A stretch of 64,000 bases of DNA, from NCBI GenBank assembly GCA_964016885.1, contig OZ024745.1, positions 56,358,001-56,422,000 of the forward strand, written 5' to 3'. The position numbers and the translations under genes were made by a program. Each line of letters starts with the position of its first letter. Position 1 is the first letter of the stretch. The notes under the pieces are model-generated. The model was not told the DNA's origin. It saw only the letters and a list, made by a program, of their open reading frames with translations, and did no database searches. This document shows, piece after piece, positions 2,440 to 63,060 of the stretch. Source of the stretch: Eledone cirrhosa (Eukaryota).

Positions 2440-4013
2440 CCTTTTGCACCAGCTTTCTTTCTTCTTTCAATACTGTCTCAACAATGGTGCTACTCCGGAG
2501 CAGTGGAAAATTGCCAGTGTCATTCCCCTGTTCAAAAAGGGCGACCGCACGTCACCTATCAACTATCGTCCAGTCATTCTTACTAGCTGTATTCCCAAAC
2601 TGATGGAATCCCGTGTCAGAGAAACACTTTGGAACTTCTGGACCTTTCACAGTCTCATCCGGCCCTAGCAGTTTGGATTTATCCTTAACTCCAGCTGCTG
2701 TGATCAGCTTATCGAGTTCCTTGAAGACATTACCCGTATCACTGACAGCAGTTCATGGGTGGATGTTCTTTACCTTGACTTCGCTAAGGCTTTTAATTCT
2801 GTGCCAGACAAAAGACTTATGGCAAAACTCTCTGCAATGGGTGTGAGGGATGATCTTTTTAACTGGTTGAAATCGTTCATTCTCAGCCGAAAAGAGGTAG
2901 TCACGGTTCTAGGACAGCATTCTTCACCGTATGAGATGTCATCTGGTGTACCACAGGGATCTGTTCTTGGTCGCCTTTTGTTTGTGGCATATATTAATGA
3001 CATAGATGCCAACTTAAAGAATGCCACGGTACTGAAATATGCAGATGACATCAAGCTGTACCTTGAAATCAAAAGGACTGATCCTGAAATCTACAACTCA
3101 TTCCTACAATCAGACCTGGACACAATGCAGCAATGGATCACAGACTAGCAACTGAAGCTGGCTGTGGACAAGTGTACCACTATGCATTTTAGTAGGAAAA
3201 ATACAGCGTCCACATTCTCCCTCCACAACACTGATATCAAGAAGTCCTCTTGTGAACGTGACCTGGGCATTACTGTCAGCAGCGATTTGCGTTGGACAAC
3301 ACATGTCTCTAAGATTGTCAAGAAGGCCGAGGGTGTCTTGGCAACACTCAGCAAGACCTTTGTTAGCTGCTCTCCAGCCATCTATTTAAAGCTGTATACA
3401 GCTATGGTACGACCACACTTGGAATTCGCACCATCAGTATGGAACCCCCATCTTGCTCAGAACATTGACCTCCTGGAAACTGTTCAGAGACGTGTAACCA
3501 AGCGCATACCCTACATCAGACACCTACCATACTCTGAACGCCTTGCTTCCCTGGGCATGGATTCATTGAAGCTCCGACGTCTGGCAATGGACTTGGTAAA
3601 CACCCACAAAGTTATTAACCATCTCGCCAAAAACAACCCCGAGCACCTTTTTGATCTCCATGTGTCTAACACACGTGGACATGCCTACAAAATCAGAAAA
3701 CAGCACAGCTCCCATGACTTTCGGAAACATTTTTTCACGCCCAGAGTTGCTGAAGCATGGAACAAACTACTTGCATCAGTTGTTAGCTGCCGAGACACTG
3801 CATCCTTTAAAACCCTCATGCTTCCCGAAATTCGCCAAAACTACACCTGATGTACTCCTTCCATACACATGCACACGTGTATATCATGACTCATGCACTG
3901 TTCATTTTCCTGACGTTTGTACATTACCCTATGTACTATACATACACTTTTTGATGAGTTGTAGTGCACCTGAGCACTATACACAATATTTCATTATTAT
4001 TATTATTATTATT
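2440..4013 (+). mobile_element. 5'-truncated CR1-type LINE, RT pseudogene with (ATT)n tail
   Basis: ORFs 2444-2668, 2759-3148 and 3164-3850 are in one frame split by two TAG stops. Motifs: PLFKKGD...NYRP, YLDFAKAF, SGVPQGSVLG, YADD, ERDLG, RPHLE...VWNP, TRGH..K. Confidence 0.92.
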
Positions 4014-12171: not shown

Positions 12172-13484
12172 CAGGGTGTTCGGGATAAATTTGACAGAAT
12201 AATATTTGATTTTTTTTTCAGATGTTTTAAATTCATTCATGCCCACTACGCTTTATTTGAAAGTTTAAACCCTCCTTCATTCATATAGGTGATGACAACG
12301 AGAATGGATGACTGGAAGCCACCTGAATCATAGAAGAGAATAACTTGTATCATGATGATTCGCGCCGGCCATCAAAATAAGGAGATTATGGTCGCTGCTC
12401 AATGCTCCCTGAACACTGTAAAAACAATCCGGCATGAACTGGAGAATTGCAATGGAGACTACGAGGCTGTGGCTAGAAGAAAGAAACATAACAGAAGATC
12501 TGATTGCTCTCGCACAGCAGAATTCTGCGAAAATCTGCAGAAAAAAGTGTTGGAGGACCCTGGCATCGGAATTCGGTCTTTGTCGCGTGAATTGAATGTT
12601 TCAGCCTCTACTATGAAAATTGCACTCAATGAAGACCTTCGCTACTACTCATACAAGCGTCGCAGAGGTCAACTTCTCGCAGAAAATGCCCGCGAAAATC
12701 GTCTGACAAAGGCGAAGAAACTTCTGAGCAAAGTGAAACATCCTGCTGAAGCACAAACAATCTGGTTCTTTTCCGATGAGAAAAACTTTTGCCAAGATCA
12801 AAAACACAACACGCAGAATAACAGATGGCTTGCATACAATCCAAAGGACACTCCTCGAGTCATGCAGACTAAATTTCCCCAAACTGTCATGGTTTTCGGA
12901 TGTGTGTCCTCCGAGGGTGATGTGATGCCTCCGCATTTTTTCAAACAGGGTCTCAGGTTGAATTCAGATGCCTACGTGGAATTGCTAACCACTGTAGTTA
13001 AGCCCTGGATAACAAGGGCAGCCAATAATAGGCCGTATGTATGGCAGCAGGATTCGGCCCCCTGCCACACCTCGGGGAAAAGTCAAAAATGGTTGTCAGC
13101 CAATTTTACGACTACACCAGTCCCAATGTTTGGCCTCCGAACTCCCCTGATCTTAACCCGATGGACTATTATGTATGGGGCGCTGTAGAGAAAGACACCA
13201 ATCGCCATGCCAGTACTACAAAGGCCCAGTTAATCGACAGAATTAAAGTAGTTTTTGAGGGCCTTCCCAGGGAAAGTGTAAAATCAGCTTGCTCCAGGTT
13301 CCGGGCCCGGATTGAGGCTGTAATGGCTGTAATAGACGCTAATGGCGGTTATTTTGAGTATAACTCTTTGACAATAGTGTAATTTCCTTGTCCATTGAAT
13401 TTCTTTTAAATCAAATAAATTTTGTAGATACCAAGCACTTTTACTTTTTCCTGATGAAACTGTCAAATTTATCCCGAACACCTG
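12172..13484 (+). mobile_element. Tc1/mariner superfamily DD37D (maT) transposon; transposase inactivated
   Basis: TIRs CAGGGTGTTCGGGATAAATTTGACAG / CTGTCAAATTTATCCCGAACACCTG. Motifs FFSDEK, WQQDSAPCH and WPPNSPDLNPMDY, with 37 residues between the last two Asp after repairing a 1-bp deletion near 13105. In-frame TAG at 12331. Confidence 0.92.
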
Positions 13485-20321: not shown

Positions 20322-20417
<96 letters not shown>

Positions 20418-20441
20418 CCACAGACCCTCCATCTCAACTCA

Positions 20442-20479
20442 CCTTTTGAAAAGCAGAAGAACTGCGAAACCGGTAAAGG
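20442..20479 (+). ncRNA. Minimal type I hammerhead ribozyme, U3-A8 core variant
   Basis: CCTT-TTGAAAA-GCAG-aagaa-CTGC-GAAA-CCGG-TA-AAGG with all stems paired, inside an insert of about 200 bp bounded by (TA)n. Confidence 0.75.
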
Positions 20480-21087
20480 AACCAAATAAATATATATATT
20501 TAAAAAAAAAATAAGACTTCAGTTGCATTTTCGATTTCATCTCTTTTTCTTTATACTTCCACTCGTGTAGGACACCTCGGTTATTTTTCATTTTGTAAAA
20601 AAAAACCTCACTTTCTAATATATATATATATATATACATTTAGACATGTTCCGATTATGCATGAACATTTTTTAATATCATCATGTCATTCTTTTAATGG
20701 AACTAACTGATTCCACTCATTAAATTATATTATTATAACCAATATTATAACCAATATTATTTTACATCGCATACAAATATTAATTAATCAGTCAACTAAA
20801 CAGTTTATAACACAGAAAATAATAGGTTTTTGGGAAGAAGGAAAGTCACGTATAGAAATACATTGTCAAATGCTTAGGATCTATACTAATCCATAAAATA
20901 GAAGATATCGTATTATAGCCAGTGCAGAAATATTACTGAGAGTACTTCCAATACAACAGAAATAATGAATCCAACACCTTACACGCTATACACCAAAAGA
21001 CACATTGACCTGCGTTCAATAATCCAATAACACCTATGAAAATAAGACGATTGAATAATGATAATAACGATTTCTGATGTAATAAAT

Positions 21088-56933: not shown

Positions 56934-57461
56934 GGCAACCGCACCAAGGTTTCTTGGTGAGGAGGGTGACTTTGGACATCCTGCAGGACTAAAAACAAAA
57001 CCTGTTAAAGGGCAAAGGAGCTCTTAAGAGTCAATGGCCATCCAAAATCACCGGGAGAGATGACCCCTTAGCCTTTGTCAAGGCAGAATTCTAGGAGAAG
57101 GAAAACTCTGATATAACACCTGCAACCCTGATGGTATCCAATGATGTTGACTTGTGCTTCTTTTTGGTAAATATCATCTTGGTTAAGAGAGTGGGACTGG
57201 CTTTGTGCAGTGCCTTTGCTCACTATAAAAGCTCCACGGCACAGGCATTGCTTTATATCTGGAGATTTCTCTGCACTTGTCGTCACATGGTACCATGGGC
57301 CCAGCACTATGTGTCAATAATTGTCACAAGTGTAGTGTTTGTACCAGAGTTTTCAAGTCGCTGGCTGGACTAAAAAGTCACACTCGTTCAGCGCATCGGT
57401 AGGGGTTCTCCTACATGGATATAAAGTAGTGGCCGTACTCGAAAACGAGTTGGCAGCCACC
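56934..57461 (-). mobile_element. Probable Dong/R4 5' region, 3'-truncated
   Basis: Repeat unit bounded by (TATG)n. Confidence 0.65.
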
Positions 57462-57506
57462 ATGTATGTATGTATGTATGCATGTATGTATGTATGTTGT
57501 ATGTAT

Positions 57507-59793
57507 CTTTTGATTCAGCCGTCTGTCGTCAGTGAAGATTTCCTCAATCTCATTCCAGAAAGTCCTGTGAAAGTAACTCTCGCAGAACCTCCGACGCTTG
57601 TGGAGGTTGCAGTGGCTATTTCGAAGCTGAACAGTGGAAGATCTCCAGGTATGGATGGCATACATGCTGAGCTCCTACAATATGGTGGTGAGAGACACCT
57701 GCAACATCTGCACTCTTTGTTTGGAAGGATATGGGCTAATAAATCCGTACCTGAGGACTGGAGAGATGCAGTAATGGTGGTCTTGTACAAGGGAAAGGGT
57801 AACAGGTATGATTGTGGGAACTACAGAGGTATATCATTGCTTTCTGCCGTAGGGAAAGTTTTATGTAGGGTGCTTCTGGACCGTCTGCTGACACACATTG
57901 CAGATTGTGTTCTTCCTGAAAGTCAATCTGGTTTTCGTGCTGGACGCGGCACTACTGATATGATCTTCTCAGCTAGACAGCTCCAGGAGAAGTGCATTGA
58001 ATAAGGCTTGGATCTGTATCAGGTTTTTGTCGATCTGACAAAGGCTTTCGATACTGTCAACAGAGAGGCATTATGGAAGGTTCTCCAGAAACTTGGTTGC
58101 CCTGATAAGTTCCTTGCTTTAGTTAGGTCTTTACATGACGACATGAAGGCTTGGGTTAATGTCGGAGGTAACATGTCAGAGCCTATCTCAGTAAAAAATG
58201 GAGTGAAACAGGGGGATATTCCAGCACCGACCCTGTTTGCCATATACTTTGCAATGGTTTTCTGTATTGCATTCAGGAATTGCGAGCATGGTGTTTACAT
58301 CCGATATCGAACCTCAGGCAGCATATTTAACATCAGGCGCTTTGCTGCGAAGACAAGGGTGTTTACATCAATCATAAGAGACCTCTTGTATGCAGATGAT
58401 TGCGATCTTGTAGCGCACACAGAGAGTGATATGCAGCACATTTAGAATGCATTTTCTGACGCTTGCACTGCCCTGGGTTTGACTGTCAGTCTCAAGAAAA
58501 CCGTCGTCATGTACCAACCTGCCCCTAGTAAGCAGTACACTGAACCAAACATCTATGTGTATGGCAAACGACTTGGAGTGGTTGATCAGTTTGTCTACCT
58601 GGGAAGCACTGTCAATCGATACGGCAACCTTGACAGTGAAATCTCACTTAGGACTAGGAAAGCAAGTGATGCTTTCGGAAATCTAGAAAGGCGACTCTGG
58701 GGTCGGCGAGACATATGCAGGAGGACAAAGGTAAGGGTGTACAGGGCATGTGTACTCTCTTGTCTTCTTTATGCCTGCGAGACCTGGGTCACATATCGAC
58801 ACCACCTTAAGCAATTGGAGCGTTTCCATCAGATGTGTCTCAGACGGATCCATGGCGTTCACTGGAGGGATCACATAAGTGATGTCGAGATTTTGGAAAG
58901 CTCTATGTGTGACAGTATAGAAGCTCTTGTGCTTAAGCAGCGACTCCTTTGGAGTGGTCACCTTGCCAGGATGAAGGATTCTAGAATACCAAAACAACTC
59001 TTCTATGGAGAGTTGGTTAAAGGAAAACGACTGCCACATAAACCAAAAAAGAGGTATAAGGATTCCTTGAAAGCCTCTCTGAAAGACGCTAACATCTCTG
59101 CTGATACATGGGAAGATATTGCTGCTGATCGTAATAAATAGAGAAAGACTGTATATGAGGGAAAAGTTGCCTTTGAGGCATCTCGAATCGCACACGAGAA
59201 AGTAAAGCGGGATGTGAGGAAGGGCATTGCTGTTGCACTTCCAGACGGCGAGGGTCCTCCTATGGTGCTGACATGCAGCGTCTGTGCGAGACTCTGCCTA
59301 AGCAAAGCTGGACTCGAAAGTCATCTTCGCAGTCATAAAGTAAGACCAGTGGTTGACTACCAGGCTGCTGTTGGAGATGCTACTCATCATGATTGCCAAA
59401 CATGTGGTAGAGAATGTAAATCAGCAGAAGGGCTCAAGCTACATGCAAAAGTACATGAACTCCAACCACAGCCGACTATTCCCAGTGAATGTTTTAGTTG
59501 CCGACTCTGTGCAAGACATTGTAGATCATTGGCTGGGCTAAAAAGCCACATTCGATCGCAGCACTGTTAGTTGTTATCGTGTGTGTGTGTATAGATATGC
59601 TTATGTGCGTGCGTGTGTGTGTATATATATATGAATATGTATATTATTATTGTTGTTGTCGTTATTATTATTATTGCTATTATTATTATTATTATTATTA
59701 TTATTGTTATTAATGTATGTGTGTGTGTGAGTATATGTATGTATGTGTGTATGTATATATATATATATATATATATATTTCTTTTCTTTTTTT

Positions 59794-59927: not shown

Positions 59928-61099
59928 TGTATGTATGTATGTATGTATGTATGTATGTATGTATGTATGTATGTATGTATGTATGTATGCATGCGTGTGT
60001 ATGTGTGTGCTTACAATATAAATTTGATTCGTGTTGATATTCTTTACTTTGATTATTTGATATTCTAGCTTTGTGTCGTTCTTTGAGATATCTACACACG
60101 GGATATTATGTGTGCTCTGTAAACACTGTTCTACCTATATTATACGACTGCTCCGTGCCCCACTATTTTCGATATATATTGCCTAAATACTGTACCAATC
60201 ATATGTAGAGATATCTTAAAAAAACCCGTGTCTTTATTTTAGGAAAAGGAACCAATATATGACGAATATAATGTTACGTAAATTTCACATCTGGCCTTGT
60301 ATTTGCTGCTGACTATTTCGCAGATGACGGGAGATAAAAAACAAATATTTTTATAAAGTCAATACAGAACAGTTCGACTTCAACCGGGTTTCTATTTTCA
60401 CCCTATCTTTTACGTACGAGAATAAACACTTACTATTTTACGTACAAGATAATTAATGAACTATGGTATGGGAAAGACATTTTAGATAGTAATTAATATT
60501 ACAGAGAGTTTCTAACCTTTAAATCTGATGTCTAATTGGCTGTAGATAAATGTTGGTTACGCGGTTAAGATATAACACTATTTCAAAAACAATCCTCAGA
60601 GAATCCTCCAACTGCCAAAGATATGTGTTCGATTTCCTCACATACACACACTCACGCACACCCACTCACATACACACATACGCATTCACCCCCACCCACA
60701 CATATATACACGCCCCCCCCCAACACAGACACACACATACCACGAAACAAAAGAAAAAGTATGTACTTTTTCAAAAACATCCATTACTCTAAAAATAGAT
60801 GTTTGACACATTCTGATTTCCTATCTTCCTTTCAACCAACGAAAAAACTTGAGCTTTTGACTACTATATACAATTCATTCACTTAACACAATAGACACAC
60901 ACACACACAAAGAGAAACCTTCTCATAAAAAGAAATTGAATTGAATTTTGACGAAACGTTGAAATCCCACCACGCAAATAAAATTATATATAATGAATAA
61001 TTCTTCGAGATAAACCCAGATATTCTCATTACATAGAAATGAAGAGACTTTGCTCAACTTCCAATTTTTTCAGCTTTAATCTTTGACTTTTTAAAATTT

Positions 61100-61142
61100 A
61101 ATATTTGATAAGATGTATTTGCTCATCGAAACCGGTAATGTT
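61100..61142 (+). ncRNA. Minimal type I hammerhead ribozyme, U3-A8 core variant
   Basis: AATAT-TTGATAA-GATG-tatttgct-CATC-GAAA-CCGG-TA-ATGTT. Confidence 0.72.
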
Positions 61143-61252
61143 TTATAAACGCCCTGTTATTTTTTAAACTCTTACTCTGTCGGAAAAAATAATAGAAATA
61201 TGCTTCCATGGTGTTTACACATTTAATCTCCATTTTCAACTATATATATATA

Positions 61253-61437
61253 TAACGAAGCAAGTGTGGTAAGGAACCAGATGGACCATAATGCACCAGA
61301 GTACTCAATATTTATGGTAGTAGAGTGGGTAATAGGAAAATGTTCAAGATCCCGACGGCAGAGCTCAAGCCGATTCGATGCCTATTTCTGAAATAGCCGT
61401 CGAAATGGCTTGAGCTCCGTCGGGGTCTTGAACGTTT

Positions 61438-62586: not shown

Positions 62587-62637
62587 TATATACATACGAT
62601 ATTAACAAATGGAAACTATATTTATAAAACCATATTT

Positions 62638-62703
62638 ATTTCATTATACATATTTCAAGGACACCAAGTTAAATTATGGTGTGCTTTCATCAGACAAAAT
62701 ATA
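62638..62703 (-). ncRNA. Hammerhead motif (mirror copy)
   Basis: Reverse complement of 62835-62900. Confidence 0.62.
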
Positions 62704-62834
62704 ATATAGATCAGTTTTATAAATAAATATTGACATACCCTTAAAAAATGCAACCACTACTGTTGGAAGCTCCAACAGTAGTGGTTGCATTTTTTAAGGG
62801 TATGTCAATATTTATCTATAAAACAGATCTATAT

Positions 62835-62900
62835 TATATTTTGTCTGATGAAAGCACACCATAATTTAACTTGGTGTCCTTGAAATATGTATAATGAAAT
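62835..62900 (+). ncRNA. Minimal type I hammerhead motif
   Basis: CTGATGA at 62845, AAG-C-ACACCA-loop-TGGTGT-C-CTT, GAAA at 62882, then TATG-TA. Confidence 0.65.
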
Positions 62901-63060
62901 AAATATGGTTTTATAAATATAGTTTCCATTTGATAATTTCGTATGTTTACTCCAAATACTTGTTGAGTGCTTTATATCAGTTATAAAAATATTTGCTTGT
63001 TGTATCCCAACAATTTAAATAGAACTTTTGCATATATATATATACATATATATATATATT

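What the first reader, a model, noticed from the sequence alone, without database searches (positions are those of the whole stretch)
61100..61142. Second intact U3-A8 hammerhead with completely different stems
Seen: the same UUGANAA core and GAAA-CCGG-UA as 20442, but stem I is AAUAU/AUGUU and stem II is GAUG/CAUC. Conserved core with replaced but paired stems argues for selection on the fold rather than chance or recent copying.
Basis: partly seen in the sequence, partly recalled or inferred. Interest (0 to 1): 0.75.

Follow-up and report, generated by a model that had tools for sequence, protein, structure and literature searches.

The report
Aging Penelope hammerhead, U3-A8 core
The motif is a real hammerhead-shaped sequence in the end piece of an old, drifting copy of a Penelope-type jumping gene; its U-A core swap is already in print, and the side results are that a sister family's copies often begin at the predicted cut site (likely a trace of cutting in the animal) and that another family of 11,000 copies carries a further core change.

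Summary
Observation confirmed: 61100-61142 parses as a minimal type I hammerhead (U3-A8 core, 4-bp stem II, 5-bp stem I, palindromic ACCGGU), predicted cut after 61137; the shuffle expectation is 0.007 per window. It lies in a 5'-truncated end repeat (about 60582-61241) of a low-copy Penelope-like family. Related copies carry a broken GIY-YIG ORF upstream. The 20442 motif belongs to another family of the same lineage. Six families keep the U3-A8 core with different, paired stem II sequences, so selection on the fold is supported between element families. It is not supported for this locus: among 39 copies the core decays like its flanks, and this copy carries three changes from the family majority. 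A 61100 x 20442 heterodimer forms only 1-bp stems I, so it is unlikely. U3-A8 hammerheads in Penelope repeats are published (PMC4209133), and this scan noted them before on other DNA. Side results: in the 20442 family, 125 copies join (TA)n targets at the predicted cut site, against 6 at two matched upstream positions; a sister family of 11,270 matches carries A13C.

The parts
61100..61142 (+). Minimal type I hammerhead motif, U3-A8 core, palindromic stem III
61100..61104 (+). Stem I 5' strand; pairs with 61138-61142 (in a dimer, with the partner's copy)
61105..61111 (+). Core U3 U4 G5 A6 U7 A8 A9
   Evidence: T3/A8 in 32 of 39 family copies
61112..61127 (+). Stem II GAUG/CAUC with loop; the family majority has a fifth pair that is broken here at 61116
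   Evidence: other copies read A at 61116 in contigs
61128..61137 (+). G12 A13 A14 A15.1, palindrome ACCGGU (61131-36), A17 at 61137; predicted cut after 61137
61138..61142 (+). Stem I 3' strand; G at 61140 differs from the family majority and gives a G.U pair
60582..61241 (+). 5'-truncated end repeat (pLTR) of a low-copy Penelope-like family ('F2'), without its ORF, ending at the longer of two 3' ends ('tail')
61241..61254 (.). (TA)n run at the 3' end, the likely insertion target
   Evidence: target role inferred
20442..20479 (+). Sibling U3-A8 hammerhead of another family ('F1') in a short copy at about 20413-20617 between TA runs

Best explanation
The motif is a minimal hammerhead carried in the end repeat of an old, truncated copy of a Penelope-like retrotransposon; in the active parent element it likely worked as a dimer, and this copy is likely a drifting relic. 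Shown: the sequence, the repeat family, the upstream GIY-YIG ORF in sister copies, decay of the core at the flank rate among copies, and six U3-A8 families with different paired stem II sequences. Inferred: two element RNAs (or two tandem repeats in one transcript) pair through ACCGGU, each core pairs with the other's stem I, and the RNA is cut after A17. The U3-A8 pair likely arose once in this lineage and was kept by selection on replicating elements. Most insertions were copied from uncut RNA; a small share likely came from cut RNA.
For: The 161-nt query gives 43 genomic places, 70-88% identical apart from the self-match; 16 copies lie within 3 mismatches of a 33-mer. Copies L005 and L013 carry broken linker plus GIY-YIG sequence upstream in the same orientation, 46-58% identical to the L149 family; L018 carries it in inverted orientation. 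The 20442 motif flanks a 938-codon RT-GIY-YIG frame on both sides in L117 (RVT_1 and GIY-YIG in related ORFs). Fourteen U3-A8 rows form one side of a branch, support 87/90. Stem II changes on both sides between families. Within the family: core 34/418, stems 70/707, flanks 535/5172 non-CpG substitutions, CpG sites 15-32%. Two 3' ends about 40 nt apart, inverted 5' pieces and TA targets match published PLE features (PMC8557442 passages). F1 copies joined to TAT: 30, 45 and 50 at the three registers around the cut, against 6 and 0 at matched positions 8-9 nt upstream and 13 at +4.
Against: No cleavage or expression data. The tree support is below the tool's 95/80 bar and the F2 rows are short and long-branched; two UA rows (L139, L156) were labelled by family, not by a same-strand hammerhead. 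This copy is one of only 4 of 39 that still meet the descriptor, so it could still cut if transcribed. The cut-site peak was measured in F1; in F2 only 5 of 22 5' ends fall near the cut (p about 0.002, AT-rich microhomology not controlled). Reverse-transcriptase stalling at the G+C palindrome could mimic the peak. Three families have a mismatch at the third stem I pair and one has A13C, so selection for catalysis may be weak.
Confidence: 0.85

Rival explanations
1. A host-co-opted ribozyme under selection at this locus, for example cutting a host intron or non-coding RNA.
For: The copy keeps an intact core and pairable stems, as only 4 of 39 copies do.
Against: It is 11% diverged from the family majority (median 9.8%), with three changes inside the motif, one breaking a pair. 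About one copy in ten stays intact anyway. The 16 longer window ORFs scanned gave RT, transposase and zinc-finger hits and one weak Atrophin hit, no clear host gene (short exons not tested).
Confidence: 0.04
2. The fold is kept in these elements for a non-catalytic role (RNA dimerisation through ACCGGU, protein binding) and is largely not cut.
For: About 99% of F1 copies run through the site uncut (125 TAT joins against roughly 19,000 copies, estimated). An 11,270-match family carries A13C. Stem I is weak in three families. Hammerhead mutants did not affect insertion of a Penelope element in vitro (PMC11167929, part 2).
Against: The catalytic core is otherwise kept across families whose ORF pieces are only 34-58% identical to this family's, and 5' joins peak at the cut site.
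Confidence: 0.2
3. The 61100 and 20442 RNAs cut each other as a heterodimer through the shared CCGG.
For: Both have ACCGGU and can form the 6-bp intermolecular helix.
Against: In a double hammerhead each stem I joins one RNA's 5' strand to the other's 3' strand. These give 1 bp each: -5.6 kcal/mol against -12.5 and -21.1 for the two homodimers.
Confidence: 0.03
4. Chance match in AT-rich DNA.
For: No favourable monomer fold; no Rfam hammerhead row among those shown.
Against: Shuffle expectation 0.007 per window; 23,334 vs 56 genome matches; fixed position downstream of GIY-YIG ORFs.
Confidence: 0.01

Closest known systems
U3-A8 minimal hammerheads of Schistosoma mansoni Cercyon PLEs (Cervera and De la Pena 2014, PMC4209133; parts 1-2 of 4 read)
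   Same: Minimal type I motif in PLE end repeats, U3-A8 core, short stem I, palindromic stem III, G10.1-C11.1, mostly solo truncated copies.
   Different: Shorter stem II (4-5 bp vs 7-8) and no extra base between 9 and 10.1 in this family. Here U3-A8 is the main form of the ACCGGU class (23,334 vs 108 C3-G8 matches). One sister family adds A13C.
Natural U3-A8 core covariation (Perreault et al. 2011, PMC3088659; passages read)
   Same: Same compensatory pair; the paper says such ribozymes were already shown active in vitro.
   Different: The passages read list no A13C variant (figure 5 not visible); those motifs are not described there as dimer-type PLE motifs.
Neptune/Nematis-type C-terminal EN+ PLEs (Craig et al. 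2021, PMC8557442; passages read)
   Same: C-terminal GIY-YIG, CX2-5CxxC linker, tail, inverted 5' copies, microsatellite targets.
   Different: Clade not tested against reference elements; the window copy has no ORF.
PAc Poseidon hammerhead (Frangieh et al. 2024, PMC11167929; parts 1-2 of 4 read)
   Same: Hammerhead in the end repeat; uncut RNA is the main template.
   Different: PAc has C3-G8, and no RNA ends were found at its cut site; here genomic 5' joins peak at the site in F1.

Membership tests
Minimal type I hammerhead of PLEs | Core N3 U G A N N8 A / G A A A / U H with a 3-8 pair | tested here: met
   U3-A8
Minimal type I hammerhead of PLEs | Stem II closed by G10.1-C11.1 and stem I of 4-5 bp | tested here: met
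   4 bp and 5 bp (one G.U)
Minimal type I hammerhead of PLEs | Short palindromic stem III suited to a dimer | tested here: met
   ACCGGU; predicted dimer MFE contains the 6-bp helix
Minimal type I hammerhead of PLEs | Located in a PLE end repeat | tested here: met
Minimal type I hammerhead of PLEs | Extra base between 9 and 10.1 (typical, but not part of the published descriptor) | tested here: not met
   absent in F1, F2, F4, F5, F6; F3 has an extra U on each side
Minimal type I hammerhead of PLEs | Self-cleavage after H17 as a dimer | not testable with these tools
   only indirect: 5' joins in F1
Penelope-like element, C-terminal EN+ | RT plus C-terminal GIY-YIG in one ORF | tested here: met
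   met for sister families; for F2 only broken linker and EN pieces in other copies
Penelope-like element, C-terminal EN+ | Tail, inverted 5' copies, microsatellite targets | tested here: met
Neptune clade | CX2-5CxxC linker between RT and EN | tested here: met
   C-X4-C-X2-C in L117; cysteine remnants in the F2 copy L013
Neptune clade | RT phylogeny with reference Neptune elements | not tested
   no reference sequences in session
Non-LTR retrozyme | Tandem non-coding units, each with a hammerhead | tested here: not met
   single copy here; family linked to an ORF

The most novel reading that the evidence does not exclude
A whole Neptune-like lineage in this genome (six families, over 34,000 motif matches) runs on a U3-A8 dimer hammerhead that does cut in the germline, leaving a step of 5' ends at the cut site. 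One of its large families (11,270 matches) has gone on to fix A13C in the core, and either still cuts through a double core variant not found in my searches or shows that Penelope elements can amplify with a dead ribozyme. The sister families would then be a natural experiment on what hammerheads do for Penelope elements.
Probability: 0.45. Interest if true: 0.55.

Novelty: new member of a known kind. Interest (0 to 1): 0.32.

Why it matters
The locus itself is an ordinary retroelement relic. The family context bears on an open point stated in PMC8557442 and PMC4209133: what hammerheads do for Penelope elements, and whether the weak minimal ones cut in vivo. The cut-site peak of 5' joins and the A13C family give a direct comparison: count cut-site joins and assay cleavage in U3-A8/A13 versus U3-A8/C13 families. 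The A13C family would also be missed by any search that requires GAAA.

Tried and rejected
Rfam scan: no hammerhead row among 150 of 182 shown. Monomer folding: no support, as expected for a dimer type. Sequencing runs: no RNA holder listed; three contig sets from one sample only showed that other copies read A at 61116. A PLE thumb family accession was not in the library. The first cut-site test by eye (27-35, 16-18 and 13-19 of the first 100 rows with unrelated upstream sequence) was weak and mixed with fold-backs and internal deletions, so it was replaced by matched counts. The same test in F5 had no control and is not used. No ORF was found for F4, and no hammerhead was assigned to the L119/L145 or outgroup families. 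Lunse et al. 2016 is not held; only its title was seen in a reference list, and it may already list A13 variants. Supplements of PMC4209133 and PMC3088659 were not opened and may bear on the A13C claim. Heterodimer with 20442 rejected. No covariance model or R-scape test was run; family-level pair changes are a few events on a tree, not independent counts.

Full report
Observation. The sequence at 61100-61142 is as described: AAUAU, UUGAUAA, GAUG-loop-CAUC, GAAA, CCGG, UA, AUGUU, with U3 at 61105, A8 at 61110 and A17 at 61137. A descriptor scan finds two U3-A8 motifs in the window (20446 and 61105) and an inverted pair of C3-G8 motifs; 150 local dinucleotide shuffles gave one U3-A8 hit in all. 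Rfam shows no hammerhead among 150 of 182 rows, and the monomer does not fold better than shuffles.

Genome context. The window lies on contig C5 of a 3.0-Gb assembly. No call names the organism; an octopus-like animal is my guess from recall. The 161-nt locus has 43 BLAST places from 40 of 118 candidates scored, and 16 copies lie within 3 mismatches of a 33-mer. Shared sequence runs from about 60582 to 61241, followed by (TA)n. Of 15 copies printed, 4 including this one end at a point about 40 nt beyond the end shared by the others, like the PLE tail of PMC8557442 (passages). Several copies stand head to head.

Link to Penelope elements. A GIY-YIG search of the genome gave 150 scored matches from 10,595 candidates; I examined 30 returned loci and 37 more chosen for long frames or differing match shapes. 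Three F2 copies carry broken linker and GIY-YIG sequence, 46-58% identical to the L149 family: L005 and L013 upstream in the same orientation (about 590 nt in L013), L018 inverted. The window copy has none. The 20442 motif (F1) lies about 900-1400 nt downstream of GIY-YIG domains and on both sides of a 938-codon frame in L117. That frame has the C-X4-C-X2-C linker that PMC8557442 assigns to Neptune and Nematis; the clade was not tested against references.

Selection between families. Six families have U3-A8 (F1-F6). Stem II reads GCAG/CUGC, GAUGA/UCAUC, GCAU/AUGC, GAUG/CAUC, GAUGG/CCAUC and GCAUU/AAUGC, always paired. Stem I keeps its first two pairs; the third is mismatched in F3, F4 and F5. 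On a 24-row linker-EN tree the 14 U3-A8 rows (five families; F4 has no ORF yet) are one side of a branch at 87/90, neither shown nor rejected by the tool's bar; a C3-G8 family lies outside. With the ACCGGU palindrome, U3-A8 has 23,334 matches (control 56) and C3-G8 has 108 (control 160). The F2/F4/F5 stem II pattern has 2,723.

No selection at the locus. Among 39 F2 copies spanning the motif (of 88 de-duplicated hits, many of them microsatellite or partial; one spanning hit, L049_2860, was left out by hand), non-CpG substitution is 34/418 in the core, 70/707 in stems and 535/5172 in flanks (p=0.18 and 0.79); CpG sites decay faster. Four of 39 meet the full descriptor, the window copy among them. 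It is 11% from the majority (median 9.8%) and has three changes in the motif, at 61116, 61121 and 61140. Many copies were recruited with queries containing the motif, which favours conservation, yet none is seen.

Mechanism. In a double hammerhead the ACCGGU palindromes of two RNAs pair, and each stem I joins one RNA's 5' strand with the other's 3' strand (model from PMC4209133; topology by inference). Nearest-neighbour energies for the active form: window homodimer -12.5 (MFE -16.5), F1 homodimer -21.1 (MFE -22.5), heterodimer -5.6 with 1-bp stems I. These ignore tertiary contacts. PMC4209133 reports no monomer activity and low dimer activity for a minimal motif; PMC11167929 reports protein-assisted cleavage that is not needed for insertion in vitro.

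Trace of cutting. The idea came from earlier notes of this scan and was tested here in F1. Copies joined directly to TAT: 30, 45 (of 82 rows, counted by eye) and 50 at the three registers that begin at -1, 0 and +1 from the cut; 6 and 0 (of 36 rows) at the matched A-run 9 and 8 nt upstream; 13 (of 41 rows) at +4. Matched pairs give 75 vs 6 and 45 vs 13. Each register is ambiguous by one base, and denominators differ somewhat between patterns. The 125 joins are under 1% of roughly 19,000 F1 copies (about 80 of the first 100 rows, by eye). In F2, 5 of 22 5' ends between -100 and +91 from U3 fall within 4 nt of the cut (p about 0.002), three of them at inversion junctions in AT-rich sequence. Stalling of reverse transcriptase at the palindrome is not excluded.

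A13C family. In 10 of 11 GIY-YIG-linked loci of F6 the core reads G-C-A-A with U3-A8 and intact stems; the eleventh gave no motif alignment. The genome holds 11,270 matches, 97 of the first 100 with C13. Searches for 'hammerhead ribozyme' with 'A13C' found no paper, and no earlier scan note holds the word. Lunse et al. 2016 and the supplements of the two main papers were not seen.

What is known. U3-A8 in PLE end repeats: PMC4209133 (parts 1-2 of 4; about 1,300 hits in S. mansoni). Natural U3-A8 covariation: PMC3088659 (passages). Also seen: PMC11167929 (parts 1-2 of 4), PMC8557442, PMC6765202 and PMC7151607 (passages), bioRxiv 10.64898/2026.07.22.740005 (part 1 of 5). A search for octopus, Penelope and hammerhead listed four papers, none on this motif by title or abstract.

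Verdict. Real motif, known kind, decaying copy. Interest 0.32, carried mainly by the family-level side results.

Noticed in passing
L095, L097, L124, L137 (about 700-1400 nt after the GIY-YIG domain); genome-wide: PLE family F6 with U3-A8 plus A13C in the hammerhead core; 11,270 matches, 97 of the first 100 with C13, stems intact.
   Followed up: partly
window 62600-62937: Fold-back element (164 of 167 bases match between the arms) with a C3-G8 hammerhead in each arm (62845 +, 62693 -), 8-bp stem I and palindromic stem III.
   Followed up: partly
window 20413-20617: Young F1 copy; 20 of 20 top BLAST loci start at the same point about 30 nt before the hammerhead, directly after a TA run (the query included that end), and end at one of two points downstream.
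   Followed up: partly
L138, L128 (family F3): Extra U on both sides between the core and stem II, and only 2 bp of stem I next to the core.
   Followed up: no
L237, L243: F1 copies that begin at the cut site and sit in the TA run of another F1 copy's end repeat.
   Followed up: partly
L120, L121, L131: Related PLE family with a C3-G8 hammerhead, a 3-bp stem II and an AGUACU palindrome.
   Followed up: partly
L119 483-3773: Open 1096-codon PLE frame; no hammerhead assigned with my descriptors.
   Followed up: no
window 61241-61420: Very high-copy repeat directly after the TA run (summed contig depth in the millions).
   Followed up: no
window 57336-59570: Broken LINE-like RT followed by C2H2 zinc fingers; other RT pieces at 2669-3148 and a weak Tc1-type transposase hit at 12334-13188.
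   Followed up: no
G000:C4:321065958-321071489: Array of 13 units spaced about 455 nt apart, in two opposed arms, each holding the sequence that follows the F5 cut site; retrozyme-like.
   Followed up: no
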